From a virus, in IMG/VR virus record IMGVR_UViG_3300045988_076491: a stretch of DNA of 57,695 bases; one strand, given 5' to 3'. The notes under the pieces are model-generated. The model did no database searches. It had not been told where the DNA came from and saw only the letters and a list, made by a program, of their open reading frames with translations. A program made the position numbers and the translations under genes. Below, one piece after another: positions 11,299-50,681 of this stretch. Positions within the stretch are counted from its first letter, which is position 1, and the number at the start of each line of letters is the position of its first letter.

Positions 11299-11396
11299 GA
11301 ACTGATTAAAATTGTTAAAAATAGAGAATATATAAGGAAATAAATATAAATAAGAAAAAGCCCAAATATCAATATACAATCAGATTATCTTATTTT

Positions 11397-11428
11397 TTAA
11401 CTTTCTTAACATTCTTAACCTTCTTAAC
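11397..11428 (-). repeat. Array of four TTAAC/(TC)TTAAC units at an exact 9-bp period (locus A, left arm)
   Basis: TTAAC begins at 11397, 11406, 11415 and 11424. Read on the minus strand the unit is GTTAAGA. Confidence 0.85.
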
Positions 11429-11520
11429 TTTTTGGCAACTTTTGTTCGGTTTTCAATTTTCATTTTGAAAAACTTAAAAACAAATCCTTATAGACGATTT
11501 TTGAGGGAGTACGTCAAAAA

Positions 11521-11553
11521 GTTAGGAAGGTTAAGAAAGTTGAGATGTTAAGA
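11521..11553 (+). repeat. Array of four GTTAAGA-like units at an 8-9 bp period (locus A, right arm, inverted relative to 11397-11428)
   Basis: GTTAGGA, GTTAAGA, GTTGAGA and GTTAAGA begin at 11521, 11530, 11539 and 11547. Confidence 0.85.
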
Positions 11554-11633
11554 AAACGCCAAGGGCCTTGCTCACGCCAGATTGCTGGCAGCCCCGCAAA
11601 GGACATCTGTAGAAAATCCGTAAGGAAAAGGGG

Positions 11634-11662
11634 TTTACTTTTAGGGGTAGGGGGTGTATAAT
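11634..11662 (+). promoter_or_regulatory. Sigma-70-type promoter for the tRNA-containing early unit
   Basis: TTTACT (11634-11639), 17-nt spacer, TATAAT (11657-11662) preceded by TG. Confidence 0.55.
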
Positions 11663-12428: not shown

Positions 12429-12574
12429 TTATTGTCCTGGCAGACGAAACCAAAGTAAAGGACCGGATGCATGAATGCGTTCATTGGGACATGGCAGTTA
12501 TGAAGCTGGGAAAGCTGTCAATCATGGGGCGTTAGCTCAGTTGGGAAAACATCACAGTAGATTGGAGGTACTAC

Positions 12575-12742: not shown

Positions 12743-12818
12743 GTACTTGTAGCTCAACGGATAGAGCGCTCGGTTGCGAACTGAGAAGATAGGGGTTCGA
12801 AACCCTTCAAGTGCGCCA
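12743..12818 (+). tRNA. tRNA-Arg (anticodon GCG by hand fold) with encoded CCA
   Basis: Acceptor GTACTTG/CAAGTGC, D arm GCTC/GAGC, anticodon stem CTCGG/CTGAG, loop TTGCGAA, T arm AGGGG-TTCGAAA-CCCTT, ends GCCA. Confidence 0.8.
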
Positions 12819-14668: not shown

Positions 14669-14847
14669 TGTACTACATAACAATTGGCGAAATAATAGAA
14701 AGCTTACAGGAGCTGCCAAAGAATACAGAAATTAGTTCATTCGGTACAGGTTACTGTAATGATAGACAGTACATAACTGTCAGTGATATAGATGGTAATG
14801 TACTTAAAGAAATAAATCTTAACAGGAGGGGCAATGATGCGCGTTAA
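14668..14847 (+). CDS. 59-aa hypothetical protein (GTG start overlapping the SNF2 stop)
   Basis: TAGTG overlap; the open frame fills the gap. Not in the ORF track because it is under 60 aa. Confidence 0.45.
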   Translation: MYYITIGEIIESLQELPKNTEISSFGTGYCNDRQYITVSDIDGNVLKEINLNRRGNDAR

Positions 14848-15058
14848 AACTGTCAATGTTACAAACCCTAGAAATGTGCTAGTGCAAATACCTAGCTTTG
14901 TTATTGCAGACTGGGGTACTACACTTGGCAGTCATTTAGAGGTATGTTATGATGAACAAAAACAGACAATTACCATCAGACCAGCAATACAGCGACGAGG
15001 GAACTCTACTGGAAAAAGTAATGCAATGGCTGGAACCGCAGAGGCGAGAGCGAATTAA
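14834..15058 (+). CDS. AbrB/SpoVT-like small DNA-binding protein (tentative)
   Basis: AGGAGGGG RBS. N-terminal VKTVNVTNPRNVLVQIPSFVIADWG...TITIRP resembles a looped-hinge-helix fold. The 3' 110 nt overlaps the next gene. Confidence 0.45.
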   Translation: MMRVKTVNVTNPRNVLVQIPSFVIADWGTTLGSHLEVCYDEQKQTITIRPAIQRRGNSTGKSNAMAGTAEARAN

Positions 15059-19416: not shown

Positions 19417-22386
19417 ATGCGCTGGAGTGAATACACTAATCGTATTCTCGCTGAGATAGACAATGAAGCTTTCTTTATGAATGAGCTTAAGAATATCCAG
19501 CGAAGAGGGCAGGAGGTAAAAGCTGAATGTCCATTTAAGGAACTGCACGAGTCACAAACAGACAACAATCCCTCGCTTACAGTCAATTTAGCTAAAGGTG
19601 TTTACTACTGTAATAGCTGCCATTCTAAGGGCAACATACATACTATGTACAAGCACTTGTATGGCTTATCCAATGAAGAGGCCTGGTTCCAACTTGGTGA
19701 CGCTTTGAAAATCCCAAGACCTGATGGTACCAAACCTACACGACCAGAAATTGACGTTGGATTGATACAGGAGTACCATCAAAAGCTTATGAGTTTGACT
19801 GGTCCAATAAGGGACATGTTGAAAGAGCGAAGAGGTTTAACTGATGAGACTCTTAAAAGGTTTCAATTAGGTTGGGATGGAGAGCGTATCACCATTCCGA
19901 TATATGATGAGTTTAATACGCTTGTCAATTTCAGAAGGTACAAATGGAACTCTACAGATGACCAGTGGAAAGTACTTAACTATGTAGATGAATACAACAA
20001 CTCATACGGAGAAGTTCGTATCTTTGGTATCGACCAAGTTGTTGACCCAGATGTTGAGTACATAGTATGGGCTGAAGGAGAGATGGACCGTATATGTGCC
20101 GAGCAACATGGCTTTCCAACGGCATGCGCTACATCAGGTGCTGGTACATGGAAACCAGAATGGACAAAGCTTTTTAGGAATAAGAAGCGAGTTTACCTAG
20201 CTCAGGACAACGATGAAGCTGGACGTATTGCAACACAGAAATTGTGTGAGAAGCTATATCGTGTTGTAGATGTCTATGTAATAAACTGGCCTGAGAATTT
20301 TCCTGCTAAGGGAGATATTACAGATTTCTTTACAAAGTGTGGTCAAACGTCACAGGATTTCCAAGTACTTCTTGACAACGCCACGCGCTACATCGACCCA
20401 TCAATGGTAGAAGAGCGTGTAGCTGATGAAACAGAAGCACAAGAAGTTCATTTGTCAGATAGTTCAGAGGCAGGTTTCTTTGGAAAGCGATTAAGAATAC
20501 CTGTAATGGTAAGTGGTAAGGATAACACTCCTTATTTATGCCCTAAGGTAATAAAAGCTTTCTGTGGTGATGCAGCAGATGCTGATAATAAGAAGTGTGC
20601 TAATTGTCAACTTGCTTTGCATGCTGGTGAGATGGAAAAGACATTATCGTCAGTAGATAGTGATGTCATGAAACTTATCAAGTGTACAGAGAAGCAACAA
20701 AGAGCTGTCATATATGAAATGCTTGGAGTTAACCCAAGATGTGACAGATGTACTATAGAAGTAAAGGAACACATGAATCTTGAAGAGTTAAGGCTTATTC
20801 CAAAGGCTGAAGCTAACTTCGGATTTTCAAAAGAGCACGAATATGTAGTGCGTACGGGATATTACATAGGTAATAATCTCAAAACTAACAAAAGATACAC
20901 AATGGTTGGATACATGTATCCAGAGCCTAACTCGCAGTATGCTACGTATATTTTTGACAAGGCTTATCCAGAGAAAGACCTAATAAGTGACTTTGAACTT
21001 AACGATGAAACGCTTGGCTACTTGAATATGTTTAAGGTAAAGCCAGGTCAGACAGTTCGTGAAAAGTTTGATGAGATTCATACAGACCTTGAACGTAACG
21101 TTACATATATTTGGGAGAGACGAAATGTAGCTTTTGCAGTAGATTTGATTTATCATACTGTACTTAATTTCTACTTCCAAGAGCAGTACGTTAAACGTGG
21201 ATGGGGAGAACTACTTATCATAGGTGATTCAGGGCAGGCCAAAACTACAATTGTTGAAAGGCTAATGCATCATTACAGATTAGGAGAGTTGCATAGTGGT
21301 GAATCATCAAGAAGAACAGGACTTGTCTATAACATGCAGCAAAACAATAAAAGATGGTTTCTCGTTTGGGGAGCGTTTCCACTCAATGATGGAGGCTTGC
21401 TTACCATCGATGAACTTTCTGGCCTTAGCGAAGACGACCTGGCCGTTATGTCAGATGTACGTAGCTCAGGAATTGCAAAAGCAACAGGAGTTATTACAGC
21501 AGAAACTACAAGCAGAACAAGAGCTATATACATTTCAAATCCTAGGAATGGACGACAGCTCAATTCAGAAACTTATGGAGTTAATGCAGTCCTTAAGCTT
21601 ATGGGAAAGGCAGAAGATGTTAGACGTCTTGACATCGCTATGTCTGTCGCATCAGGAGACGTCGACCCGTCTCTCGTCAATAGGTCTCTCAAAGACTTAC
21701 CTCCAGTACCCCATGTGTACACCTCAGATTTATGCAACACGAGAGTGTTATGGGCATGGAGTCGCAAACCAGACGATGTCATCATCACTGATGAGGCGAC
21801 GCAACGCATCCTTGAGAGTGCAACAGAAATGGGTGCAAAGTACTCCTCGAAGATTCCTATAGTTGAAGCGGCTGACCAACGTATCAAAATTGCTCGTCTC
21901 GCCGTCGCCGCAGCGTGCTGTGTATTTTCATCAGACGAGACTGGCCAAAAGGTTATAGTTAAGCCTGAACATGTTGACTTTGTTGTAGATTTTATGAACG
22001 AGCTCTATTGTACAAAAAGCTTTGGCTATGACCGCCTGAGCGAACAAGATATGGTTACATCTGACACATCAGCTAATAACATTAGTAAGCTAAGGGCTCT
22101 GTTCTTAACACTGCCTCTTGTGGATGCTAATGAAATGGCTAAAATACTGTATCAGTTGCCATACTTCAGCAGAGCTACACTTGAAGACTATACTGGTCTT
22201 TCAAAGGATGACCTTAAGATGCTTCTGAAGTACATGACAAATAATCACCTGGTAGATAAGGTCAAGGGAGATTACAGAAGATTACCACTTGGTACAGAGT
22301 TGTTTGAGAATTTAACAACTGTGCCTATAACAAAAGCAGAAATTGAAGCAGCGAGAAAAGACTTCTATAGCGCTGCAGATATGTAG
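19417..22386 (+). CDS. DnaG-type primase (CHC2 zinc finger plus Toprim) fused to an AAA+ (MCM-like) helicase domain
   Basis: CPF...H...C..CH zinc finger; Toprim AEGEMD...DNDEAGR; Walker A IIGDSGQAKT; Walker B LLTIDELS. Confidence 0.75.
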   Translation: MRWSEYTNRILAEIDNEAFFMNELKNIQRRGQEVKAECPFKELHESQTDNNPSLTVNLAKGVYYCNSCHSKGNIHTMYKHLYGLSNEEAWFQLGDALKIPRPDGTKPTRPEIDVGLIQEYHQKLMSLTGPIRDMLKERRGLTDETLKRFQLGWDGERITIPIYDEFNTLVNFRRYKWNSTDDQWKVLNYVDEYNNSYGEVRIFGIDQVVDPDVEYIVWAEGEMDRICAEQHGFPTACATSGAGTWKPEWTKLFRNKKRVYLAQDNDEAGRIATQKLCEKLYRVVDVYVINWPENFPAKGDITDFFTKCGQTSQDFQVLLDNATRYIDPSMVEERVADETEAQEVHLSDSSEAGFFGKRLRIPVMVSGKDNTPYLCPKVIKAFCGDAADADNKKCANCQLALHAGEMEKTLSSVDSDVMKLIKCTEKQQRAVIYEMLGVNPRCDRCTIEVKEHMNLEELRLIPKAEANFGFSKEHEYVVRTGYYIGNNLKTNKRYTMVGYMYPEPNSQYATYIFDKAYPEKDLISDFELNDETLGYLNMFKVKPGQTVREKFDEIHTDLERNVTYIWERRNVAFAVDLIYHTVLNFYFQEQYVKRGWGELLIIGDSGQAKTTIVERLMHHYRLGELHSGESSRRTGLVYNMQQNNKRWFLVWGAFPLNDGGLLTIDELSGLSEDDLAVMSDVRSSGIAKATGVITAETTSRTRAIYISNPRNGRQLNSETYGVNAVLKLMGKAEDVRRLDIAMSVASGDVDPSLVNRSLKDLPPVPHVYTSDLCNTRVLWAWSRKPDDVIITDEATQRILESATEMGAKYSSKIPIVEAADQRIKIARLAVAAACCVFSSDETGQKVIVKPEHVDFVVDFMNELYCTKSFGYDRLSEQDMVTSDTSANNISKLRALFLTLPLVDANEMAKILYQLPYFSRATLEDYTGLSKDDLKMLLKYMTNNHLVDKVKGDYRRLPLGTELFENLTTVPITKAEIEAARKDFYSAADM

Positions 22387-37464: not shown

Positions 37465-38550
37465 ATGTCAAAGATAGAATTAACAATTGCACCTAACTAT
37501 GTACCTAACTGGACATATGTAGATGCTGTGCGTGAATTATTCCAAAATGCTTTGGACCAGCAAAAGCAAAACAATGAAAATGAGGCAAGCTGGAGTTATG
37601 ATGATGTTACAGGTGTGCTTACAATCAGCAACGCAACATCTAAGTTAACTGCAGCATCGCTGCTTCTTGGACAGACTACTAAGGCTGATGATAAATCTAC
37701 AATTGGTCAGTTTGGTGAGGGCTATAAGATTGCAACGTTAGTATTGCTGCGCGAAGGCAAGAACGTTGTATTCTACAACTATGGTGCGAGAGAAATATGG
37801 AGGCCAAGATTTGTTAAGTCGCGTCGCTTCGGCACCGACATCTTAACATTCTTCATCGAGAAGAAAGCTATATGGGAGAAGGTACCATCAGCAGACTTAG
37901 TCATAGCTATTGAGGGTATCTCAGCTGATGAATACTACAATCAGATTGTACCGTCAAACTTACATCTGCGTAGTGACTTCGAAGACATCGAAGAGACTGA
38001 ATATGGTAACATTATTAACTTACCAGGCAAAGTATTTGTTAATGGTCTGTATGTTTGTGACTACGAGCCATATACGTATGGTTACAACTTCAAGCCTGAG
38101 CATATACGCCTGGACCGTGACCGTAAGATGGTTAGTGACTTTGACCTTCGCTGGATGGCATCAAAGATGTGGAGTACCTGCAAAGACACTGACAAGGTAC
38201 TCGAGATGATTGCAGAAGATAAAGCTGACGTTGCTTTCATTGATAGTGTAAGTTACACATCAAGCTGGCGTGACCTCGCCGCCGATAAGTTCAAGAGCGT
38301 GTATGGTCCAGAGGCCATACCAGTATCTAACCAGGAAGAGCTTGACGAAGTGCCTACTGGCTACAAAGGCGTTGTAGTTAGTGAGAGTTACTGCTCATTA
38401 GTCAGGAAAAGCTCAAGCTTCATAATGCCAGCACCCGACGAGCACTCACCAATTGATGCCCTACAAGACTGGTATGACAGCATAAAGCATAAGCTTGATA
38501 GTGATGAGCAGGAGCAGTTCGAAGCTATCATGGATGACTTGTGTAGTTAG
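37465..38550 (+). CDS. GHKL-superfamily (HSP90/MORC/histidine-kinase-like) ATPase candidate
   Basis: N-box-like VRELFQNALDQ and G-box-like IGQFGEGYKIATL. Confidence 0.5.
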   Translation: MSKIELTIAPNYVPNWTYVDAVRELFQNALDQQKQNNENEASWSYDDVTGVLTISNATSKLTAASLLLGQTTKADDKSTIGQFGEGYKIATLVLLREGKNVVFYNYGAREIWRPRFVKSRRFGTDILTFFIEKKAIWEKVPSADLVIAIEGISADEYYNQIVPSNLHLRSDFEDIEETEYGNIINLPGKVFVNGLYVCDYEPYTYGYNFKPEHIRLDRDRKMVSDFDLRWMASKMWSTCKDTDKVLEMIAEDKADVAFIDSVSYTSSWRDLAADKFKSVYGPEAIPVSNQEELDEVPTGYKGVVVSESYCSLVRKSSSFIMPAPDEHSPIDALQDWYDSIKHKLDSDEQEQFEAIMDDLCS

Positions 38551-39145: not shown

Positions 39146-39586
39146 CTATTTGTCTTTATTGTGCGGTCCAATTCTCTTATCAGGCTTAGTGGTAAATGTT
39201 ACCGACCCACGCTTTGAGCCCTTGTCAGAACGTTGCTTTCTATTAGAGCCTTTTGGTATGCTTCTGCTTCTTCGTATCTCATCAGCGCAGGTTGTACAAT
39301 AATTTGTATAGTTGAAGTCTCGGTCAGCAATAGCGACCTTTCCACACTTCTTGCAGTGCCACTGCGGGGCTGGCTTCAAGTGTGCAAGCTTTCGTCTCAT
39401 AGCTACAGGCACAAACATTCCGTGCTTGATGTTAAATTCACACATCTCATTGTGCCACTCAAGCTCTTCTTGTGTGCTGCGTCCCTGCCTTACTTTCTCA
39501 AGCACTCTGTAACATCTGGCACACAGTGAGTCCCTGTTAATGTGCGTAGTTTCTTCTGTAATTCCGCAAAACTTACATACTTTCAT
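39146..39586 (-). CDS. Zn-ribbon protein with a basic C-terminal tail
   Basis: CKFCG...CARCY and CKKCG...CTTCA pairs; GGAGGAG RBS. Confidence 0.65.
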   Translation of the reverse strand: MKVCKFCGITEETTHINRDSLCARCYRVLEKVRQGRSTQEELEWHNEMCEFNIKHGMFVPVAMRRKLAHLKPAPQWHCKKCGKVAIADRDFNYTNYCTTCADEIRRSRSIPKGSNRKQRSDKGSKRGSVTFTTKPDKRIGPHNKDK

Positions 39587-40250
39587 TTGTTAGCTCCTCC
39601 AATCTATCTTGTGTACGACTGCGCCACTTTGGCACTTGTGGAGCCCAGTAGCCTCGCTTCTTTAACACTTCATATTCGTCAAGCAGCATCAATAGACTAA
39701 CGCACTCTGCCATGTCTAGCACAGCAATCCTTGCACGTAGTGCTTTATACTCCTTGTAACGCTTCTGACATGCAGGGCACCGCTTAGTTGTATCTTGTCC
39801 TACTGGCAGAAGGTGTGCTTCACCGCAGTATCTACACTTAACTGTAAGCATATCTTGCGCTGCAACTTCTTGAAGACGCTTCTTGCTTAGTGCTTCTTTA
39901 GAAAGTTCCTCAAACTGTACGTACCTCTGTGCCGCGGCGTACAGTTCATCTATCCAATCAGGTACCAGTCCGCCATTGTTCTTAATATCTACGAAGTACT
40001 GTAATCTGCCTAGTTGGCGCTTCACAGCGTCTAATGTGCTGTGCCTGCTAAGTCTAGATTTGGCCAACGTTATGCCCTGCACCCTACGAGAGCAATCACA
40101 GCAAAGTTTATTACCGTGGACTGACCTGTTACCTGCTGGTACGTTTGTGGCGCCACAGCAAGGACATCTGGCCATTTCATACGTTAAGTGCCCCTTAGTA
40201 TCTACAAGAATATTTCTGCCTTTGTTATCTTTTCCTGTACATTTGTACAT
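39573..40250 (-). CDS. Zn-ribbon protein
   Basis: CPCCG...CCDC and CRYCG...CPAC pairs. AGGAGGTGATT leader identical to the terS leader. Confidence 0.65.
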   Translation of the reverse strand: MYKCTGKDNKGRNILVDTKGHLTYEMARCPCCGATNVPAGNRSVHGNKLCCDCSRRVQGITLAKSRLSRHSTLDAVKRQLGRLQYFVDIKNNGGLVPDWIDELYAAAQRYVQFEELSKEALSKKRLQEVAAQDMLTVKCRYCGEAHLLPVGQDTTKRCPACQKRYKEYKALRARIAVLDMAECVSLLMLLDEYEVLKKRGYWAPQVPKWRSRTQDRLEELTNESM

Positions 40251-40269
40251 ACAATCACCTCCTAATTAT

Positions 40270-40298
40270 ATTATACGCAATTTAGTTCAGTGATATAA
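40270..40298 (-). promoter_or_regulatory. Promoter of the shared late-type family (minus strand)
   Basis: Minus strand reads TTATAT, 17-nt spacer, TATAATATAATTAGGAGGTGATT. 25 nt are identical to 45561-45585. Confidence 0.6.
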
Positions 40299-40340
40299 CA
40301 TCAGTTGAATTAAATATATTACATTACTTGACGTTAGTAT

Positions 40341-40405
40341 AAAATACGTTAAGATACTTGTTACGAGTTGTTTTCCTTAACTTTCTAGACATCTTAACGT
40401 ATTTT
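40341..40405. repeat. Perfect 15-bp inverted repeat AAAATACGTTAAGAT / ATCTTAACGTATTTT enclosing TTAAC-type units (locus B, left arm)
   Basis: Arms at 40341-40355 and 40391-40405. TTAAC at 40377 and 40394, with a degenerate unit between them. Confidence 0.85.
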
Positions 40406-40535
40406 TGAGGCCACTCAATAAGTATATATGATATTTAGTATAAAAATATTTTTGAGTACTAATTTGATATTATATCAGTGGTAGTATAAAAAATTGTTGA
40501 GGCGTCGCATAGATTATGATGATATAAAAAAATAC

Positions 40536-40582
40536 GTTAAAATGTTAAGATTGTTAAGATTGTTAAAAAGTTAAAAAGTTGA
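40536..40582 (+). repeat. Array of six GTTAA(G/A)A-type units at an 8-9 bp period (locus B, right arm)
   Basis: GTTAA/GTTGA begin at 40536, 40544, 40553, 40562, 40570 and 40578. Confidence 0.85.
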
Positions 40583-40788
40583 ATAAACTATGAAGGTCAA
40601 GATGTCTGTACTGCTGTGCCGCTGCGTATATATCTACTAGCTTATTAGAATAGAACTAATAATTAAAGTCAAATCAAAAACCAATATTTGGGCTTTTTTC
40701 AATATATAAAATATATCCTATATATATACTTATTTTTTTCAAAATTTGATTGGAAAGAAGGAACATGAAGTCTTCTGAATCTTTGTAG

Positions 40789-40817
40789 GTTTAACACGTC
40801 CGTGATATCCATATAAT
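40789..40817 (+). promoter_or_regulatory. Possible promoter reading into the GC-rich island
   Basis: TATAAT at 40812-40817 with TTTAAC/TTAACA 15-16 nt upstream. The -35 is weak. Confidence 0.3.
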
Positions 40818-40859
40818 TATACAGCACCGTGATGAGAATGGTCTGTAGAAAATCCGCTA

Positions 40860-41430
40860 GGCTTGACGTCGCTCGGGGTCGCTGCGGCGACGAGTTCAGT
40901 GGAAGTCTTATAGTTCAACACTAGTCTTTTTAAGCCAAACAAGCCTCTGCACGGATATAGAATACTCTGACATACAGCGTCGCGGCGTCCCTGGGCTGAT
41001 ACAGACTGAAGGATTGTAGATACACAGGCAGTGAGTCACAGTGCCACCCGGCCGCGGCTCTACTCCTTAAAAGAAGTGCAGCCACAGTCAGACGAGGCAA
41101 GGGTTTTAGCAGCTGCGGAGCAGCGGCGCATGGTCGCAGCGGCGCTATTACGACTAGACCAGCACGGATGCCAGGCTGAGCCTATTTTGTGCAGCGCCGC
41201 CGCGACATTGACTGGCCATGACTGTGGAGGGTTTTAGCCGCCGCATCCCGGCCTCCGTACGGCCGGAGCTGACGTCAGTTCTACAAGCTAGTAGATTACA
41301 GCTGGTCCAATCCAACCCCGCACCACGGTGGCCCAGGCCCACTTGCTTACGCTGAACTTGACTTCCACAAGCTAGTAGATGTCCCGGCCAGGCGGCGCTT
41401 GAGCCAGGCTGCACCAAAGGGCATATCAAA
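40860..41430 (+). ncRNA. GC-rich non-coding island A' (candidate structured RNA or protein-binding array)
   Basis: No RBS-preceded ORF. 38/60 G+C in 41101-41160 by hand count. Contains two GGGTTTTAGC, two GCTAGTAGAT and the palindrome CTGACGTCAG (41269-41278). Confidence 0.35.
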
Positions 41431-41460
41431 GCCCAGCTGGCTGACAAGACCAGCTGGGCT
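41430..41460 (-). terminator. Terminator of the 41490 gene (minus strand)
   Basis: Stem agcccagctgg, 9-nt loop, stem ccagctgggct. The minus-strand tail is UUUGAUAU. Confidence 0.6.
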
Positions 41461-41489
41461 TCAATTGAAAGTGAGTATTCAGTTGTATG

Positions 41490-42248
41490 TTATCCAAGCA
41501 TTTCTTTAATCTGTGCAAGCAGCGCTTTGCTGTCTTTTGCATTCATGTGCTCAAGGTCGACGTCTGCGAGCTTCTCAGTTAATGCGTCCTTGGTCTCATC
41601 AACCTTCACAACCTGTGTACGACCTGTAGAAACTCTGATTGCCTTGAGCTGCTCTTCAGCTACGAGCAATGCCTGCCAACGTGGGTCCTCTTCACTGAAG
41701 TCAGCTTTTGACTTCATGATAGACTTCTTGGACTGAACGTTGCGGATTTCCTTCTTAAGTCTGTCCTGGTCCTCTTTGAGCTCTTCAAGCTGCTCAGCAG
41801 TAAAATCTACTGAACCAGACATGCGGCGTGCACCACCTGCGGACTTAACCTTGCCAGTAGCCTTTCTGATAAGGTTCTCAGCAATCGCACCAGCCATCAT
41901 ACTCTTGTAGTTATCCATTGTCATGGCCTTGCTCTTTGCACGAGAACGCTTAGACTGCTGACTCTTCAACATACCATCAACAGTTGCTTCTTCAAGCTCC
42001 TTGATGAACTCAACATCTACAGTGTCATAGTCAATCAACTTTGCAAGCAGTGCATCCATTGCGTTGTGGTCATGCTTTGAAGCTTCGAAGTCTTCACGGT
42101 ACTCATCAAGGTTGTCATTCAACTTCTTGATGCACTCAGCAACAAGCTCATTTGCAACAGTTGTAAGCTGTGCAGTACCTGCAAGATTTCTTGCGTTTGT
42201 AGTTGTTTCATTGTTTTCAGTTGTGTTGAACATTTCGTTAATAGACAT
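41490..42248 (-). CDS. 252-aa charged helical protein; paralogue family with a duplicated QSK(K/R) basic motif
   Basis: ATG at 42248 (AAGGAG RBS). Motifs MLKSQQSKRSRAKSK and IRNVQSKKSIMKSK. Alignable with the 44374 protein. Confidence 0.75.
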   Translation of the reverse strand: MSINEMFNTTENNETTTNARNLAGTAQLTTVANELVAECIKKLNDNLDEYREDFEASKHDHNAMDALLAKLIDYDTVDVEFIKELEEATVDGMLKSQQSKRSRAKSKAMTMDNYKSMMAGAIAENLIRKATGKVKSAGGARRMSGSVDFTAEQLEELKEDQDRLKKEIRNVQSKKSIMKSKADFSEEDPRWQALLVAEEQLKAIRVSTGRTQVVKVDETKDALTEKLADVDLEHMNAKDSKALLAQIKEMLG

Positions 42249-42320
42249 AGTAGTCTCCTTTCTGTCCGCGTCATCCACGCGGCTGCCACACTTTGCAGTG
42301 GCCTGCGTATTTGGTTAAGC

Positions 42321-42520
42321 TTTATTTCCTTAACTCTATACATATTATATCATGAATTTTTGCGGCTGTACATATGTTTTGTAAATTCAATGTGGTCACT
42401 GTACAGTCTTTATTCAATTTTGTATAACTGCTAGAATCAAGTACTTATTTCTTAACTCTATAGATATTATACTATGGAACTTTGCAGTTGTACATATGTT
42501 CTTCAAATTCAATACAGTGG
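42321..42520 (-). repeat. Tandem ~80-bp duplication, each copy carrying a minus-strand promoter (units 42321-42400 and 42444-42520)
   Basis: Both units contain cttaactctata.atattata and gtacatatgtt. The minus-strand -10 elements are TGATATAAT (42344-42352) and TAGTATAAT (42466-42474). Confidence 0.7.
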
Positions 42521-42540
42521 CTGCACCAACTATTTGTAAC

Positions 42541-42830
42541 TGAGTGAGGCGGCGAGGTGGCGCAGCCTTGTCAGGTCAAGCTAAGGTTTTAGCCGTCGTG
42601 GCATAGCCAAGTCCGACTAGGGTTTTAGCGACTGCTGTGTTGCACTGTTGAGTTGAGACTGCAGCAGTCAGGTCCAGCGCTGCCAGGCTGAGGCTGGGTT
42701 TTAGCCGCAGTGGTAAAGCGCAGTCTTGCTGCGGCTGCACGGATTGCTCACGCTGCATCGGGCTGCAGGCTAGTAGATAGCCGACGGCCGCCCGGCTGAG
42801 GCTGAACTGTGGTTGGTGCAGCAGTTAAAA
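42541..42830 (+). other. GC-rich non-coding island B
   Basis: Three (G/A)GGTTTTAGC copies (42584, 42620, 42696), GCTAGTAGAT (42769) and GCTGAGGCTGAACTGT (42795). Lies between divergent promoters. Confidence 0.5.
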
Positions 42831-42865
42831 ATATTTCTGAAACTGACACCAAACTGCAAGATATT

Positions 42866-42874
42866 TGATATAAT
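42866..42874 (+). promoter_or_regulatory. Extended -10 promoter TGATATAAT of cassette 1
   Basis: Part of a ~55-bp block (aaaaatatttctgaaactga...tgatataata) repeated at 43475-43525. Confidence 0.6.
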
Positions 42875-42920
42875 ATAATTGTAAGAAATAATAAAGACAG
42901 TATGAAAGTGAGGTACAACT

Positions 42921-43292
42921 ATGAACAACCTAAAAACAATCGAAAGTGCTATTCAAAGGCTCAAGGCCATGTATGACTGTAACTATGAATGCATGGATGC
43001 AGATGACAGTGGCGACTTACTGACAACTATTTATGAGCTTGAACAAATGAAGAGAGACTTACTACATGATGACTACATTAAGAAAGTTACAGACTTCAGA
43101 GACCACGTGGTATCTACAATGCCAGAGTCAACTGAAAAAGAAGATGAGCACAGCCTAAAGGCTTGGGAAGACTTCTATGGACTGAAGTGGACAATTAGTT
43201 TTGCAGGCAAAGAAGTAACTCTTGACAATGAGGCTGGTACATGGCAACCAATTGTTGACATGCTTACTGATTATCTTGACAATTATCTTTAA
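42921..43292 (+). CDS. 123-aa acidic hypothetical protein (cassette 1)
   Basis: GAAAGTGAGG RBS; D/E-rich; has its own promoter and terminator. Confidence 0.75.
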   Translation: MNNLKTIESAIQRLKAMYDCNYECMDADDSGDLLTTIYELEQMKRDLLHDDYIKKVTDFRDHVVSTMPESTEKEDEHSLKAWEDFYGLKWTISFAGKEVTLDNEAGTWQPIVDMLTDYLDNYL

Positions 43293-43300
43293 GAGTAAGT

Positions 43301-43331
43301 ACACAGCAGTTATCTGCTGTGTATTTCTTTG
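43301..43331 (+). terminator. Terminator of cassette 1
   Basis: Stem acacagcag, loop ttat, stem ctgctgtgt, followed by atttctttg. Confidence 0.75.
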
Positions 43332-43470
43332 CCTTGAAGTGCAGCTACTGCATTGTCAAGCCATGACTGGGTTTTAGCCGCCGTGGCCTGAGGCCACTAA
43401 GCTGAGGCTGTCCACATGCTGGTAGATAGCCTTGCACTGACTAGCTGAGGCTGAACTGTATTTGATGCAG
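43332..43470 (+). other. GC-rich non-coding island C
   Basis: GGGTTTTAGCCGCCGTGGC (43369), GCTGGTAGAT (43418) and GCTGAGGCTGAACTGT (43444). Confidence 0.5.
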
Positions 43471-43513
43471 TCATAAAAATATTTCTGAAACTGATAACAA
43501 ACTGCAATAGATA

Positions 43514-43522
43514 TGATATAAT
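43514..43522 (+). promoter_or_regulatory. Extended -10 promoter TGATATAAT of cassette 2
   Basis: Homologous to the promoter block of cassette 1. Confidence 0.6.
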
Positions 43523-43561
43523 ATATATATAGAATAAAGAAAAGAAAGTGAGGATATTAAA

Positions 43562-43882
43562 ATGAAAGATGAATTGTGTACTATTGCTGGAGAAGACCTG
43601 GTTGGCCTCATCGAGAAGATAGCCTATGAAGACTATGCTAAGGCCTATAGAAAGCTGCATAGGGCTGGACTTAATCGTAGACCTACATATGAAGACTTCA
43701 TTCGTAGCTGTCCGGCTTTTGTAGCATTTCCATCAATACCTGATGATGCATGGCATCAGGCCTATGAATTCATAGCCGACTTGTTTGATGACAATGAAAA
43801 GAATGGAACGCCTTGCGATGAAGAGGCGAAGTTCAACCAGAATGTAGCAGAGCTACTGATGATGTTCAACAACAGAAAATAA
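43562..43882 (+). CDS. 106-aa acidic hypothetical protein (cassette 2)
   Basis: GAAAGTGAGG RBS; has its own promoter and terminator. Confidence 0.75.
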   Translation: MKDELCTIAGEDLVGLIEKIAYEDYAKAYRKLHRAGLNRRPTYEDFIRSCPAFVAFPSIPDDAWHQAYEFIADLFDDNEKNGTPCDEEAKFNQNVAELLMMFNNRK

Positions 43883-43890
43883 TAGCAGGT

Positions 43891-43921
43891 ACACGGCAAG
43901 CAATTGCCGTGTATTTCTTTG
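43891..43921 (+). terminator. Terminator of cassette 2
   Basis: Stem acacggcaa, loop gcaa, stem ttgccgtgt, followed by atttctttg. Same frame as the cassette 1 terminator but with compensatory stem changes. Confidence 0.75.
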
Positions 43922-44170
43922 CCTGCAGATGCAGCCTTGCATTATCAAGCCAGGACTGGGTTTTAGCGGCCGTGGCACGCCATTATCAAGCCAGAGCTGG
44001 GTTTTAGCGGCCGGGTGCAGCTTGCCAAGCTGAGGCTGGGTTTTAGCGGCCGTGGCACGCCTACTGCATGGCCGCGGCTGAGCTGCGTACGCAGCAGAAC
44101 GTACGTTCCACTGGCTAGTAGATAGCCTAGCGCAGTCCGGCTGTGGCTGAGCTGCAGCTGTGGCGATGTG
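43922..44170 (+). other. GC-rich non-coding island D
   Basis: Three GGGTTTTAGCGGCCG copies (43958, 43999, 44038). Palindromes gctgcgtacgcagc and gaacgtacgttc. GCTAGTAGAT at 44114. Confidence 0.5.
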
Positions 44171-44200
44171 CAAAAGAAAAGACCGGTCTTTCGACCGGTC
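44171..44200 (-). terminator. Minus-strand terminator
   Basis: Stem gaccggtc, loop tttc, stem gaccggtc. The minus strand follows with UUUUCUUUUG. Confidence 0.65.
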
Positions 44201-44207
44201 ATGTATT

Positions 44208-44315
44208 TTATACTAGAATAAAGTCCTTTTCATATCTCCTTATATCAGTAGCATCAATTGTTATTGTACCTACATACAGGCCTGAATTCTTTTCATATAC
44301 ATTGAATGTTCTCAC
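44208..44315 (-). CDS. 35-aa micro-ORF between two terminators (tentative)
   Basis: GTG start 9 nt after AGGAG. Peptide (M)RTFNVYEKNSGLYVGTITIDATDIRRYEKDFILV. Confidence 0.3.
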   Translation of the reverse strand: MRTFNVYEKNSGLYVGTITIDATDIRRYEKDFILV

Positions 44316-44340
44316 TTTTATTATCTCCTTTCATTTAAGA

Positions 44341-44368
44341 AGGGACCTGGCCTGTGGACCAGGTCCCT
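44341..44368 (-). terminator. Terminator of the 44374 gene
   Basis: Stem agggacctgg, 8-nt loop, stem ccaggtccct, immediately after the stop codon. Confidence 0.65.
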
Positions 44369-44373
44369 CATTC

Positions 44374-44889
44374 TTACATCAGACTTTTCAGAAGTTCTAC
44401 AACCTTTTCTTGACTCAGATTTCCTGAACTTTCAATTGTATCAATGATGGTCTGTACATCTGTTTTTCTAACATATTCATTATCAACAGGTTTTGTAGAT
44501 TCTCTTCTTTCAATCAGCATCTTTTCAATCTCACAGGCTTTTCTGTACTCATCATTATCACCCTCAACATCTGTCAACCATTTGGTAAGTGTCTTTTTTG
44601 ATTGAATACTTCTAATGGCCTTTATGGTCTCATCATAATCTAACTGGTCAACATCTTCCTGTGTGTACATTGTAACTGGCTTTTCTTTAGGGTCAAGTAA
44701 CTGTCTAACCTCTTTTAAGACCTGCTCATATTTTACTACCTCAGTCATCTCTTCCTCATAGGTCTTCTTGCCCTTCTGCTTTTTAAGGCGGCACTTCAGA
44801 GACTGCACCCTTTTAAGCTCCTTTGCTACAAGGTCCACATTGTTCTCGAACTTTTCTGCAACCTTTTCGATTTCTTTCATGTTTGTCAT
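44374..44889 (-). CDS. 171-aa charged helical protein; paralogue of the 41490 product
   Basis: ATG at 44889 (GAAAGTGAGG RBS). Motifs LKRVQSLKCRLKKQKG and IRSIQSKKTLTKW. Confidence 0.75.
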   Translation of the reverse strand: MTNMKEIEKVAEKFENNVDLVAKELKRVQSLKCRLKKQKGKKTYEEEMTEVVKYEQVLKEVRQLLDPKEKPVTMYTQEDVDQLDYDETIKAIRSIQSKKTLTKWLTDVEGDNDEYRKACEIEKMLIERRESTKPVDNEYVRKTDVQTIIDTIESSGNLSQEKVVELLKSLM

Positions 44890-44950
44890 TTTGATTTCCT
44901 CACTTTCAATATTATTTTTGTAAGTCATTCATTACTCACTTACAATATAA

Positions 44951-44979
44951 ATTATATCGTGGATTTTGGAATTTGTAAA
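44951..44979 (-). promoter_or_regulatory. Sigma-70-type promoter (minus strand)
   Basis: Minus strand reads TTTACA (44974-44979), 17-nt spacer, TATAAT (44951-44956). Confidence 0.65.
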
Positions 44980-45453
44980 TAGTTTCTTTCAAAAAAGTTG
45001 CACAAAGAACTATACAATTTCCTATGCAATTTGACAGAACATTTGTTCTGTGCATACCGCCCAAAAATTGCGCCGGATTCTGTGCAGTTTTGCCGGCCCC
45101 TTAGCGCGGTGGCGCTTGCACAAGTTAACTTTGCCAAAAATAAACAAATAAAAGAAGATGCAAAGTCTAGCATAACTGCAGCATCACAGCCTAAATGAGA
45201 CTCAGCAGCCCGACGCCACGTAGCCGCCCTTCGCTGCTTAGACAAATAGACAATCCAAAGATTACAGGAAGCTATAGTAGTTACAGAAGCGACCTTTTCC
45301 GGCAAAAAATCTAGAGGAATTGTAGATAAACTGGAAAGAAAATAGTTATTTTGTTTATTATATGTGTTAATATTGTAAAAATTAACTTGCAGCATGTACT
45401 TGGTACTTGTAACGAGCTCGTGAGCATCCCAGAAGAGATTTTATAAGGTGTAT

Positions 45454-45469
45454 ATTACGAACGTGTTGC
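45454..45469 (-). promoter_or_regulatory. Inverted copy of the 16-mer GCAACACGTTCGTAAT
   Basis: The plus strand reads ATTACGAACGTGTTGC, the exact reverse complement of 10367-10382. Confidence 0.6.
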
Positions 45470-45539
45470 ACGTAAGGCCTTTTTAAGGAAAAATCTACTA
45501 TTTCTCTCGATTTTGCTGACTATTGGATAACACTTGTAG

Positions 45540-45568
45540 CTATACACGGCAGCCAAACAACGTATAAT
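45540..45568 (+). promoter_or_regulatory. Late-type promoter upstream of terS
   Basis: CTATAC, 17-nt spacer, TATAAT, then ATAATTAGGAGGTGATT. The same cassette occurs at 40270 (minus strand) and 50633. Confidence 0.6.
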
Positions 45569-45586
45569 ATAATTAGGAGGTGATTT

Positions 45587-50632: not shown

Positions 50633-50661
50633 TTATATAATCGGGCCAAACAACGTATAAT
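50633..50661 (+). promoter_or_regulatory. Late-type promoter upstream of the scaffold and capsid genes
   Basis: TTATAT, 17-nt spacer, TATAAT, within gccaaacaacgtataatataa, which is shared with 45550-45570. Confidence 0.6.
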
Positions 50662-50681
50662 ATAAATAGGGGGTGTGACAA

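What the first reader, a model, noticed from the sequence alone, without database searches (positions are those of the whole stretch)
40341..40856. Locus B: paired inverted arrays of 9-bp-phased GTTAAGA repeats in a very AT-rich 500-bp region
The perfect 15-bp inverted repeat AAAATACGTTAAGAT / ATCTTAACGTATTTT (40341-40355 and 40391-40405) encloses TTAAC units. About 130 bp further on, a third AAAATACGTTAAaAT copy leads into six GTTAA(G/A)A units starting at 40536, 40544, 40553, 40562, 40570 and 40578. The same architecture occurs at locus A (11397-11553). Both loci also share AAAAAGCCCAAATAT (11355-11369, inverted at 40684-40698) and TCTGTAGAAAATCCG (11606-11620, direct at 40842-40856). The locus centres (about 11,475 and about 40,470) are 28,995 bp apart on a 57,640-bp circle, so they lie almost exactly opposite each other, and each sits at a boundary between transcription modules. 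Short iterons with a sub-helical period beside easily melted AT-rich DNA fit a replication origin, a partition or centromere-like site, or a polymerising regulator site. No initiator or ParB-like gene is recognisable, so the binding protein would be new.
Basis: partly seen in the sequence, partly recalled or inferred. Interest (0 to 1): 0.7.

Follow-up and report, generated by a model that had tools for sequence, protein, structure and literature searches.

The report
Paired inverted iteron arrays, likely origins
Two sites on opposite sides of this circular phage genome each carry mirror-image rows of a 9-base motif around easily melted DNA; they are conserved across a whole group of uncultured phages and most likely mark where DNA copying starts, though no experiment has tested this.

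Summary
Every coordinate checks out, except that the sixth unit at 40578 is degenerate (GTTGAAT) and the period is 8-9 bp, not a strict 9.

Phased GTTAA clusters occur only at these two loci, against none in 300 simulated genomes.

Each locus has two arms of 8-9-bp units (consensus GTTRAGAAn). The arms are inverted copies of each other, unit by unit, around a non-palindromic AT-rich spacer. Both loci also carry a shared AT-rich flank that ranks among the three least stable stretches of the genome.

Locus A lies upstream of the first early gene in about 25-28 of about 33 relatives (SNF2 53-100% identical). Locus B was found in 6 relatives, with more variable units. Units at A and B co-vary within a genome.

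The best reading (about 0.45) is a pair of origin-type protein-DNA sites. The architecture matches the SaPI ori, where inverted iteron sets flank an AT-rich centre. The two-site layout recalls SPP1 oriL/oriR. The phage encodes a DnaG-primase-MCM helicase fusion.

Third-codon GC skew fits two origins best at phase 11.4-11.6 kb. That signal is confounded with transcription modules and is weak at four-fold degenerate sites.

The binding protein was not identified. I rate this a new variant of a known kind.

The parts
11316..11369 (-). AT-rich element 'E' at locus A (ATATTTGGGCTTTTT plus an AT-rich tail, read on the minus strand). It abuts the stop codon of the last late gene.
   Evidence: The 15-mer is shared with 40684-40698. 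There is a roughly 55-nt, 80% match between the B flank and the A flank of relative L002. The region 11294-11353 is the third least stable 60-bp window of the genome.
11393..11434 (.). Locus A left arm: TTTTTTAAC, TTTCTTAAC, ATTCTTAAC, CTTCTTAAC, then the inner unit TTTTTGGCA.
   Evidence: I1; TRF period 9. Conserved in relatives.
11435..11514 (.). Locus A spacer: 80 bp, 70% AT, with no dyad symmetry.
   Evidence: Mirrored complementarity is 0.20 against 0.29 in shuffles. Spacer length in relatives is 67-107 bp.
11515..11556 (.). Locus A right arm: (CGT)CAAAAA, GTTAGGAAG, GTTAAGAAA, GTTGAGAT, GTTAAGAAAA.
   Evidence: The best register is 31 nt with 28 Watson-Crick pairs and 2 G.T pairs.
11607..11620 (+). 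Conserved motif CTGTAGAAAATCCG, about 25 nt upstream of the early promoter -35.
   Evidence: There are two exact copies in the genome. It is kept across the clade.
11634..11662 (+). Sigma-A-type early promoter (TTTACT-17-TATAAT) for the first early gene at 11717.
   Evidence: 10 of 12 matches. Conserved in relatives. Its distance from the right arm varies from 40 to 100 bp.
40253..40300 (-). Promoter and RBS block of the leftward Zn-ribbon gene (39573-40250), next to locus B.
   Evidence: A 25-nt stretch is 100% identical to the block before terS at 45561-45585 (I5).
40341..40372 (+). Extra partial arm of locus B: AAAATACGTTAAGAT plus GTTACGA and GTTGTTT. It duplicates the start of the right arm.
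   Evidence: D2: 40329-40355 against 40517-40543, 78% identical. I3: perfect 15-nt inverted repeat with 40391-40405.
40375..40406 (.). Locus B left arm: CCTTAAC, TCTAGAC, TCTTAAC, then GTATTTTT.
   Evidence: I1 (31 nt, 84% complementary to 40528-40558). Also.
40407..40527 (.). Locus B spacer: 121 bp, holding about 2.6 loose copies of a roughly 46-bp unit. It contains the least stable 60 bp of the genome (40415-40474).
   Evidence: (D3, D7, D9).
40528..40586 (.). Locus B right arm: AAAAATACGTTAAAAT, GTTAAGAT, GTTAAGAT, GTTAAAAA, GTTAAAAA, GTTGAATAA.
40684..40737 (+). AT-rich element 'E' at locus B, in the opposite orientation to the copy at A.
   Evidence: The region 40693-40752 is the second least stable 60-bp window. 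It is conserved right of the array in L006, L008, L009 and L016.
40843..40856 (+). Second exact copy of CTGTAGAAAATCCG.
19417..22386 (+). Candidate trans factor (by inference only): DnaG Zn-ribbon and Toprim primase fused to an MCM-clade AAA+ helicase.
   Evidence: Pfam PF00493 at 47.6 bits plus PF01807 and PF13155. All 44 PDB sequence hits are MCMs. No co-variation with unit type was detected.
14834..15058 (+). Candidate DNA-binding protein (by inference only): a 74-aa protein with a SpoVT/AbrB fold, conserved across the clade.
   Evidence: AlphaFold2 model with pLDDT 75. Foldseek hits to Sso7c4, AbrB-N, MazE and SpoVT, with probability up to 0.99 and E-values of 0.06 or weaker. The N-terminus is invariant whatever the unit type.

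Best explanation
Loci A and B are two copies of one cis-acting, origin-type protein-DNA site of a circularising, probably cos-packaging, lytic phage.

Each site has two opposed sets of 8-9-bp iterons. A sequence-specific phage protein is proposed to occupy these cooperatively. The iterons bracket a 70-120-bp AT-rich spacer, and beside them lies an even more AT-rich element ('E'). Melting is proposed to start in this AT-rich DNA.

The phage replicative helicase is a DnaG-primase-MCM fusion. It is proposed to be loaded once per arm, in opposite orientations, to start bidirectional replication. This follows the model proposed for SaPI Rep at its origin. With two such sites half a circle apart, the genome would be copied as four arcs. 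One of the two sites could instead, or also, act as a fork barrier, as proposed for SPP1 oriR.

Shown:
- the anatomy of the sites;
- their restriction to two loci;
- conservation across the clade;
- mirror symmetry of the arms;
- low helix stability;
- co-variation of units between A and B;
- presence of the primase-MCM gene.

Inferred:
- protein binding;
- the identity of the binder;
- melting;
- helicase loading;
- origin activity.
For: 1. Iteron anatomy. Arms of 3-7 units have the consensus GTTRAGAAn. Spacing is 9 bp in 32 cases and 8 bp in 8. Such clusters occur only at the two loci.

2. Conservation.
- The A array is present upstream of the first early gene in about 25-28 of about 33 relatives, down to 53% SNF2 identity.
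- The B array is present in L006, L008, L009, L016, L018 and L020.
- The arrays are better conserved than the spacer sequence.

3. Unit types co-vary between A and B of the same genome.
- The window has GTTAAGA at both loci.
- Genome 037502_002662 has GTAGCAAAA at A (L052) and GTAGCGAAA at B (L020).
- Genome 092460 shares CGTCAAAAA-type units.

4. Helix stability. The three least stable 60-bp windows of the genome are the B spacer and the E element at B and at A.

5. Architecture. It matches the SaPI ori: short iterons, an AT-rich centre, at least two iterons on each side pointing in opposite directions, bound by a self-loading Rep helicase that in SaPI5 is fused to its primase (PMC9371898). 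The phage encodes a primase-MCM fusion.

6. Precedent for two origins. SPP1 has two similarly built origins bound by one protein, one of them in an intergenic segment with moron genes (PMC6316719). Locus B likewise adjoins a swappable Zn-ribbon gene cassette.

7. GC3 skew.
- Skew is +0.110 and +0.176 in the sectors to the right of A and B, against +0.056 and -0.006 in the sectors to their left.
- In a model with two origins half a circle apart, the best of 145 phases is 11,400-11,600.
- Gene-label permutation reached the observed difference in 106 of 20,000 trials.
- The real pair ranks in the top 0.27% of freely placed origin pairs.
- Skew is higher to the right of A than to its left in 16 of 17 relatives.

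8. Packaging. An HNH endonuclease lies between terS and a Terminase_6N terL. This points to cos packaging near terS, so a circular replicating form is plausible.
Against: - No canonical initiator (Rep, O, DnaA, DnaD-like) was found among about 55 proteins scanned.
- The arrays are 8 kb from the primase-MCM gene, whereas the SaPI ori lies immediately downstream of rep.
- No protein co-varies with unit type. This was checked for the primase-MCM segments, for the proteins encoded at 9-33 kb, and for the AbrB-like protein.
- The skew signal is confounded. A and B also mark the starts of the early and late regions, and a third local minimum lies at 31-32 kb next to a promoter.
- With four-fold degenerate sites only, the real pair ranks in the top 14%. 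With all sites it ranks in the top 5%.
- Whole-sequence GC skew simply follows gene strand.
- The spacer of locus A is only in the top 2-10% for instability.
- B arrays were not found next to the 262-aa homologue in L010, L011 and L013-L015, where the gene order also differs.
- Many lytic phages start replication from transcripts or by recombination, without iterons (established knowledge of T7 and T4).
Confidence: 0.45

Rival explanations
1. Operator or architectural arrays for transcription control. A phage protein polymerises on the phased units and represses, insulates or loops the neighbouring outward-facing promoters: the early promoter at 11634 and the leftward promoter at 40277. This would help time the switch from early to late expression.
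For: - Both arrays have a promoter pointing away from them within about 50-100 bp.
- A sits exactly at the boundary between late and early genes.
- Short-period arrays in direct and inverted orientation that act as operators are known from pSM19035 omega heptads, ParR-parC and ParG (own knowledge).
- The phage encodes a conserved AbrB-fold protein and its own sigma factor.
- The skew step at A could reflect transcription.
Against: - The distance from array to promoter varies from 40 to 100 bp among relatives, and the arrays never overlap the -35 or -10.
- The B array persists in L009 with no leftward gene or promoter beside it.
- No promoter is conserved inside the spacer.
- This reading does not explain the constrained 67-107-bp AT-rich spacer or the adjacent least stable DNA.
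Confidence: 0.22
2. Replication fork barriers or termination sites. Oppositely oriented protein-bound arrays stop forks from either side, as inverted Ter sites do in R6K and Bacillus subtilis, or trigger the theta-to-sigma switch as proposed for gp38 bound at SPP1 oriR.
For: - Inverted arrays separated by about 60-75 bp are the layout of the R6K and B. subtilis Ter sites (own knowledge).
- The SPP1 oriR precedent applies.
- The phage encodes a RecE-like exonuclease, a VRR-NUC nuclease and an endonuclease VII-like protein that could process stalled forks.
Against: - A model with one origin and the terminus opposite gets no support from skew: A ranks 105 of 289 phases.
- Fork traps do not need adjacent easily melted DNA.
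- No Tus- or RTP-like protein was found.
Confidence: 0.1
3. A long hairpin in RNA or single-stranded DNA, for example an RNase III processing site, a transcript end, or a single-strand initiation signal. In this reading the pairing of the arms is the function, not protein binding to the units.
For: - The arms are mirror copies unit by unit. The mirror register beats registers shifted by 9 in all 12 loci.
- Irregular units are mirrored exactly: L028 27 of 27, L042 48 nt at 95%, L201 66 nt at 100%.
- Compensatory changes are seen in L001.
- Mismatches are G.T more often than A.C on the plus strand (28 against 12).
Against: - A hairpin needs no 9-nt internal periodicity and no shared unit type between the two loci.
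- Arm lengths are unequal (L026 has 5 units against 7; the window's locus B has 3 against 6).
- There is no GC-rich stem and no U tract.
- In L006 the mismatches split 6 G.T to 5 A.C.
- The G.T excess is what the G- and T-enriched synonymous composition of the plus strand predicts.
- There was no Rfam match.
Confidence: 0.08
4. A packaging (pac or cos) recognition site for the small terminase, or a plasmid-prophage partition centromere.
For: - Phased short repeats that could wrap a protein ring fit models of small-terminase binding (own knowledge).
- Dispersed centromere sites exist in phage N15 (own knowledge).
Against: - The sites are 5 kb and 23 kb from terS.
- The HNH-terL arrangement points to cos next to terS.
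- There are two sites half a genome apart.
- No ParA, ParM, TubZ, integrase or repressor was found.
Confidence: 0.05
5. A selfish or neutral palindromic repeat, such as a MITE-like element or slippage product, with no function for the phage.
For: - The form resembles a MITE: terminal inverted arms around a short AT-rich core.
- Unit number varies through apparent slippage (L026, L052).
Against: - The element keeps the same syntenic position in relatives down to 53% SNF2 identity, while its sequence turns over.
- There are only two copies per genome.
- In 120 bacterial-genome hits to the tandem motif, none has the inverted partner array.
Confidence: 0.04

Closest known systems
SaPI replication origin with its Rep or PriRep self-loading helicase-initiator (Staphylococcus aureus pathogenicity islands; PMC9371898)
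   Same: - Six to twelve short iterons are split into two sets around a central AT-rich region.
- At least two iterons on each side point in opposite directions.
- The helicase belongs to the AAA+ group that includes MCM, and in SaPI5 it is fused to its primase.
- The SaPI model proposes one hexamer loaded on each side.
   Different: - SaPI iterons are 5-6 nt and lie immediately downstream of rep. Here the units are 8-9 bp and lie 8 kb from the helicase gene.
- There are two copies per genome.
- No sequence similarity to the solved Rep structures was detected.
- No winged-helix iteron reader was shown.
- The helicase does not co-vary with unit type.
Bacillus phage SPP1 oriL and oriR with the origin-binding protein gp38 (PMC6316719)
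   Same: - A virulent phage whose DNA circularises has two distant sites of similar build: repeats plus an AT-rich unwinding element.
- Both sites are bound by one phage protein.
- One site sits in an intergenic segment with moron genes.
- AT-rich islands mark both sites.
   Different: - SPP1 uses direct repeats, and oriL lies inside the initiator gene.
- SPP1 has a DnaB-type helicase with a loader.
- No gp38-like gene was found here.
- The SPP1 sites are about 13 kb apart on a 44-kb circle, not diametrically opposite.
Archaeal origins (ORB or mini-ORB elements in inverted orientation around an unwinding element, where MCM is loaded) and the herpes simplex oriS and oriL palindromes (own knowledge)
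   Same: - Inverted initiator sites flank an AT-rich centre.
- The helicase is an MCM or is loaded in two opposed copies.
- In HSV oriS, complementary boxes pair within one strand after melting. This is a possible reason for the strict arm symmetry seen here.
   Different: - Those systems use Orc1/Cdc6 or UL9 initiators, and no such gene is present here.
- Their sites are single long boxes, not phased 9-bp arrays.
Short-period operator and centromere arrays bound by ribbon-helix-helix proteins: pSM19035 omega (7 bp), TP228 ParG (8 bp), R1 ParR-parC (11 bp, two sets around a promoter) (own knowledge)
   Same: - Contiguous repeats with a sub-helical period occur in direct and inverted orientation.
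- They are occupied cooperatively.
- They occur at several loci of one replicon.
   Different: - Those arrays overlap promoters and work with a partition NTPase. Here no such gene is seen, and the arrays stay clear of the -35 and -10.
Inverted Ter sites of plasmid R6K and the Bacillus subtilis terminus (own knowledge)
   Same: Two oppositely oriented protein-binding elements are separated by about 60-75 bp.
   Different: - Each Ter element is a single 22-30-bp site.
- There is no adjacent unwinding element.
- They need Tus or RTP, which were not found here.

Membership tests
Iteron-type origin (SaPI, SPP1, lambda, iteron-plasmid kind) | Several phased repeats of one short sequence | tested here: met
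   There are 3-7 units per arm. The period is 9 bp in 32 cases and 8 bp in 8. The consensus is GTTRAGAAn.
Iteron-type origin (SaPI, SPP1, lambda, iteron-plasmid kind) | AT-rich DNA unwinding element within or beside the repeats | tested here: met
   The three least stable 60-bp windows of the genome lie in the B spacer and in the E element at B and A. Melting itself was not tested.
Iteron-type origin (SaPI, SPP1, lambda, iteron-plasmid kind) | Cognate initiator gene encoded by the same element, usually adjacent | tested here: not met
   No Rep, O, DnaA, DnaD-like or gp38-like family was found among about 55 proteins. A primase-MCM fusion exists 8 kb away, but its initiator role is only an analogy.
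Iteron-type origin (SaPI, SPP1, lambda, iteron-plasmid kind) | Replication starts there (marker-frequency peak, autonomous replication) | not testable with these tools
   No read data or experiments were available.
Iteron-type origin (SaPI, SPP1, lambda, iteron-plasmid kind) | Strand-composition switch at the site | tested here: inconclusive
   The GC3 two-origin phase is best at 11.4-11.6 kb (permutation 106 of 20,000), and the real pair is in the top 0.27% of freely placed pairs. With four-fold degenerate sites it is only in the top 14%, and the signal is confounded with transcription modules.
Iteron-type origin (SaPI, SPP1, lambda, iteron-plasmid kind) | Specificity of repeats and binder co-evolve | tested here: inconclusive
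   Units co-vary between A and B within a genome. No protein was found that co-varies with them.
Partition centromere (parS, parC, tubC) | Partition NTPase (ParA, ParM or TubZ) and an adaptor gene on the same replicon | tested here: not met
   None was found in the Pfam and PHROG scans of early, inter-module and packaging genes. Tail genes were not scanned.
Partition centromere (parS, parC, tubC) | Plasmid-prophage or other stably maintained lifestyle | tested here: not met
   No integrase, repressor or plasmid replication gene was seen. The gene content is that of a lytic phage with its own replisome.
Packaging site (pac or cos) | Located in or next to the small-terminase gene, one per genome | tested here: not met
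   The arrays are 5 kb and 23 kb from terS (45587). There are two copies. The HNH-terL arrangement suggests cos beside terS.
Intrinsic terminator or structured RNA | GC-rich stem with a U tract, or a match to a known RNA family | tested here: not met
   No terminator-like site lies in either locus. Rfam finds only the two tRNAs.
CRISPR array | Repeats of 20 nt or more separated by unique spacers of similar length | tested here: not met
   The units are 8-9 bp and contiguous, with no spacers.
MITE or transposon ends | Copies at non-syntenic sites, with target-site duplications | tested here: not met
   There are two copies at fixed syntenic positions across the clade. No inverted partner was present in the 120 bacterial hits.

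The most novel reading that the evidence does not exclude
The two palindromic iteron sites are the licensing sites of a bacterial-virus MCM. The DnaG-primase-MCM fusion, with or without a small adaptor protein, reads the phased units and self-loads as two opposed hexamers across the AT-rich spacer. After melting, the strictly complementary arms pair within each strand and hold the bubble open, as in HSV oriS*. The two diametrically placed origins fire together, so the circle is copied as four arcs. That would make this clade a simple bacterial model of archaeal- and eukaryote-style double-hexamer loading.
Probability: 0.12. Interest if true: 0.8.

Novelty: new variant of a known kind. Interest (0 to 1): 0.5.

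Why it matters
If these are origins, an abundant clade of uncultured phages from anaerobic habitats would have its replication start sites mapped from sequence alone. The clade carries NrdD and its primase-helicase falls into hundreds of clusters.

It would also offer a compact system in which an MCM-family helicase fused to a DnaG primase is targeted to inverted iteron sets. That links the SaPI and plasmid style of origin recognition with the opposed-hexamer logic of archaeal and eukaryotic origins.

Two practical uses follow:
- The arrays give a marker for estimating replication activity from metagenome coverage.
- They give a bait sequence for finding the binding protein.

If instead they are regulatory or fork-barrier sites, they are still a clade-defining cis element with an unidentified reader.

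Tried and rejected
- Close relatives in GenBank phages: none by megablast or blastn. The polymerase and primase find only relatives at 32% identity or less.
- Bacterial genomes scanned for three phased TCTTAAC units: 120 hits, mostly simple tandem repeats in cyanobacteria and Bacteroidales. None has the inverted partner array. Dead end.
- Rfam, at gathering thresholds on the whole window and at E<=1 on 40.2-45.6 kb: only two tRNAs.
- Whole-sequence GC skew follows gene strand only. The model with one origin and an opposite terminus is not supported.
- Dyad symmetry of the spacers is at chance in all 17 loci tested. The element is therefore not one long palindrome.
- RNA hairpin reading: the G.T against A.C mismatch asymmetry is weak and is explained by the composition of the plus strand.
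- The neighbouring Zn-ribbon genes (39146-40250) as the binder: they are absent beside the array in L009 and L020, and they look like swappable cargo.
- The AbrB-like 74-aa protein as the specificity determinant: its N-terminus is invariant whatever the unit type.
- Primase-MCM segments, and all proteins encoded at 9-33 kb, tested against unit type: no selective divergence.
- PDB sequence searches of the 133-aa and 262-aa neighbours were uninformative. These two proteins and the 184-aa protein share only a short motif.
- Promoter scans inside the loci give only weak matches typical of AT-rich DNA.
Full report
WHAT THE WINDOW IS

The window is a 57,640-bp circle with a 55-bp assembly overlap and 41% GC. 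It is a phage genome with almost all genes on the plus strand. Its layout is as follows.
- terS is at 45587, followed by an HNH endonuclease, terL (Terminase_6N) and a Mu-type portal.
- Structural and tail genes run across the coordinate origin.
- Lysis genes (an amidase-like gene and an SLT transglycosylase) end at 11298.
- An early and replication region spans 11717-38930. It encodes:
  - an SNF2 helicase, a VRR-NUC nuclease and a sigma factor;
  - an ATP-dependent ligase, an RNase H-like nuclease and a RecE-like exonuclease;
  - nucleotide-metabolism enzymes including NrdD;
  - a family-A DNA polymerase;
  - a 989-aa protein that fuses a DnaG Zn-ribbon and Toprim primase to an MCM-clade AAA+ helicase.
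  All 44 PDB sequence hits of the helicase half are MCMs.
- Between 39.1 and 45.5 kb lie a few small genes on both strands and much repeat-rich non-coding DNA.
- No cultured relative exists in GenBank phages.

CHECK OF THE OBSERVATION

- The sixth unit, at 40578, is GTTGAAT.
- The period is 8-9 bp: spacings are 8, 9, 9, 8, 8 at B and 9, 9, 9 and 9, 9, 8 at A. TRF reports periods 9 and 8.

Clusters of phased GTTAA occur only at these two places. None occurred in 300 simulated genomes, and none in simulations trained on the AT-rich loci themselves. A general scan for inverted repeats with 27-nt arms 55-135 bp apart finds only A, B and one element next to a tRNA.

ANATOMY

Each locus consists of a left arm of units written TTTCTTAAC on the plus strand, an AT-rich spacer, and a right arm of GTTAAGAAA units.
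- A: arms 11393-11434 and 11515-11556, 80-bp spacer.
- B: arms 40375-40406 and 40528-40586, 121-bp spacer.
- B also has an extra partial arm at 40341-40372.
- The consensus over 55 units from the window and close relatives is G-T-T-R-A-G-A-A-n.
- The innermost unit is usually TTTTGAC(G) on the left and (C)GTCAAAA on the right.

Three further points were not in the finding.

First, the arms are true inverted copies unit by unit.
- In all 12 loci examined, the mirror register scores well above registers shifted by 9 bp. Examples: L009 34 against 13.5, L006 34.5 against 14, L028 31.5 against 18.
- Irregular units are mirrored exactly: L028 27 of 27, L042 48 nt at 95%, L201 66 nt at 100%.

Second, the spacer has no dyad symmetry at all.

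- E lies left of A and, inverted, right of B.
- Together with the B spacer, the two E copies are the three least stable 60-bp stretches of the whole genome.

The other shared 15-mer is part of the motif CTGTAGAAAATCCG(T). At A this motif sits about 25 nt upstream of the -35 of the early promoter TTTACT-17-TATAAT. It is kept across the clade.

RELATIVES

Anchoring on neighbouring proteins in IMG/VR gave more than 100 loci.

Locus A.
- It is present between the end of the late genes and the first early gene in about 25-28 of about 33 evaluable relatives, down to 53% SNF2 identity.
- Arms are 31-66 nt and 77-100% complementary. Spacers are 67-107 bp with 59-90% AT.
- The arrays are better conserved than the spacer sequence.
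- Unit variants include GTTRAGAAn (most genomes), yTRAGATAA, TTAAGTTAAGAAA, GTTGATTT and GTAGCAAAA.
- The first three variants share the core T[TA]RAGA.

Locus B.
- It is found about 0.8-1.1 kb downstream of the 262-aa gene in L006, L008, L009, L016, L018 and L020.
- Its units are more varied: GCTCAGAAA, GTTGAGTTT, CGTCAAAAA, GTTGAAAAT, GYGACAAAT and GTAGCGAAA.
- It was not found at that position in L010, L011 and L013-L015, where the gene order also differs.
- Several other loci are cut by contig ends.

Co-variation. Where both loci of one genome are available, their units agree.
- Window: GTTAAGA at A and GTTAAGA at B.
- 037502_002662: GTAGCAAAA at A and GTAGCGAAA at B.
- 092460: CGTCAAAAA-type units in both.
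- 029305_2760: TGTTAAGAT-type at A and TGTTGAAAA-type at B.
- 125582: only partial agreement.
This argues for a common reader encoded by the genome, or for sequence exchange between the two sites.

The Zn-ribbon genes left of B (39146-40250) belong to a swappable cassette.
- Homology with the closest relative breaks at about 39141 and about 40712.
- Related single- or double-module Zn-ribbon genes flank the array in L006, L008, L016 and L018, but not in L009 or L020.

FUNCTION

Phased, sequence-conserved units are the signature of cooperative protein binding. A hairpin needs no internal period, no shared unit type between loci and no particular number of units, and here the arm lengths are often unequal. 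There is no GC-rich stem or U tract and no Rfam match. The modest excess of G.T over A.C mismatches on the plus strand (28 against 12; 6 against 5 in L006) is what the G- and T-enriched synonymous composition of that strand predicts.

The arrangement of opposed short iterons around an AT-rich centre is that of the SaPI origin.
- In SaPIs, a self-loading Rep helicase reads the iterons through a C-terminal winged helix.
- In SaPI5 that helicase is fused to its primase.
The phage carries a primase-MCM fusion.

Two similarly built origins bound by one protein are documented for SPP1. One of them sits in an intergenic segment with moron genes and possibly acts as a fork barrier (PMC6316719).

The HNH-terL arrangement suggests cos packaging beside terS. 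That argues against a packaging role for the arrays and in favour of a circular replicating form.

Whole-sequence GC skew only follows gene strand.

Third-codon skew of plus-strand genes gives more.
- It is +0.110 (11.5-26 kb) and +0.176 (40.5-54.8 kb) to the right of the loci.
- It is +0.056 and -0.006 to their left.
- For a square wave with two origins half a circle apart, the best of 145 phases is 11,400-11,600. Locus A is at 11,475. The difference is 0.106.
- Gene-label permutation reached that difference in 106 of 20,000 trials.
- Among 7,665 freely placed origin pairs, the real pair is in the top 0.27%.
- Skew is higher to the right of A than to its left in 16 of 17 relatives.

The caveats are serious.
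- A and B are also near the starts of the early and late regions.
- A third local minimum lies at 31-32 kb beside a promoter.
- With four-fold degenerate sites the real pair falls to the top 14%, and with all sites to the top 5%.

I count this as suggestive only.

WHO BINDS

This was not resolved.
- No Rep, O, DnaA, DnaD-like, ParB, ParA, ParM or TubZ family was found.
- The 74-aa ORF at 14834-15058 is a real gene restricted to the clade. Its model (pLDDT 75) matches only SpoVT/AbrB-fold DNA binders, at weak E-values.
- Its N-terminus, VTNP[RK]NV[LV]VQIP, is invariant even in genomes with deviant units.
- The primase-MCM protein is 72-97% identical across the clade. None of its segments diverges with unit type.
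- No protein encoded between 9 and 33 kb does so either.
Because most unit types share one core, a conserved reader remains possible.

VERDICT

The finding is a genuine cis element, conserved across the clade and present at two loci. The best-supported mechanism is an origin-type protein-DNA site: opposed iteron sets plus an unwinding element, possibly serving the MCM-type helicase. My confidence in that is about 0.45.

The rivals are as follows.
- Transcriptional or architectural operator arrays: 0.22.
- Fork barriers: 0.10.
- A functional hairpin: 0.08.
- A packaging or partition site: 0.05.
- A neutral repeat: 0.04.

The element is a new variant of a known kind. It has SaPI-like architecture, an SPP1-like duplication, 9-bp units, strict arm symmetry and an MCM-type helicase in the same genome. 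It is not a new category.

Noticed in passing
window 40800-45500: A mostly non-coding, GC-richer stretch is packed with repeat families.
- Eight copies of a roughly 39-nt unit with core GGGTTTTAGC[CG]GCCGTGGC, at 41081, 41209, 42564, 42676, 43349, 43938, 43979 and 44018.
- A 65-nt unit in three copies.
- A 25-nt unit containing CTAGTAGAT in three copies.
There is no Rfam match. The stretch 40712-41500 is 88% identical in relative L006. A sigma-A-like promoter (TTTAAC-16-TATAAT, about 40791-40817) may drive a non-coding RNA into this region.
   Followed up: partly
window 19417-22386 (+): A DnaG-type primase (Zn-ribbon plus Toprim) is fused to an MCM-clade AAA+ helicase. It is at least 80% identical in more than 120 protein clusters from contigs of about 55-62 kb. 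More distant homologues occur in Microbacterium, Cutibacterium and Pseudomonas phages, where they are annotated as primase/helicase.
   Followed up: partly
window 40253-40277 (-), 45561-45585 (+), 50645-50675 (+): A near-identical promoter-plus-RBS block, CGTATAATATAATTAGGAGGTGATT, precedes the Zn-ribbon gene, terS and a head gene. It is a candidate late-promoter class, perhaps read by the phage sigma factor at 15298-15864.
   Followed up: no
window 10515, 18492, 30765, 34876 (+); 42326-42404 and 42448-42526 (read on -): There is a family of sigma-A-like promoters, TTTACrgCTgC...TGATATAAT. The copy before the leftward 262-aa gene is duplicated in tandem with a 122-bp period.
   Followed up: no
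window 39146-40250 (-): Two genes are built from repeated modules, each a Zn-ribbon (CxxC...CxxC) followed by a helical segment. The cassette is replaced by other members of the same module family in relatives, with break points at about 39141 and about 40712. There are weak PHROG hits to endonuclease families.
   Followed up: partly
window 14834-15058 (+): A 74-aa gene restricted to the clade is predicted to have a SpoVT/AbrB swapped-hairpin DNA-binding fold. Its N-terminus, KTVNVTNPRNVLVQIP, is invariant. The gene overlaps the annotated start of the VRR-NUC gene.
   Followed up: yes
window 46428-47000 (+): An HNH endonuclease gene lies between terS and terL (Terminase_6N type). This arrangement is typical of HK97-like cos packaging.
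   Followed up: no
window 12176-12267; tRNAs at 12354-12429 and 12743-12818: A 27-nt inverted repeat (93% complementary, 38-nt loop) lies between the first early gene and tRNA-Met. Equivalent inverted repeats, often containing TGTAGA, lie at the same place in relatives. tRNA-Met(CAT) and tRNA-Arg(GCG) follow.
   Followed up: no
window 11717-12118 (+), 41490-42278 (-), 44374-44928 (-): Three conserved early proteins of unknown function lie next to A, next to B and in the repeat region. They share only a short motif, T-x-E-Q/D-L ... I-R-x-x-Q-S-K-K. They have no family or structure match.
   Followed up: partly
window 37465-38550 (+): A 361-aa protein (PHROG 6077, function unknown) carries motifs that look like a GHKL/Bergerat ATPase fold (ELFQNALDQ, GQFGEGYK). 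This is from reading the sequence only.
   Followed up: no
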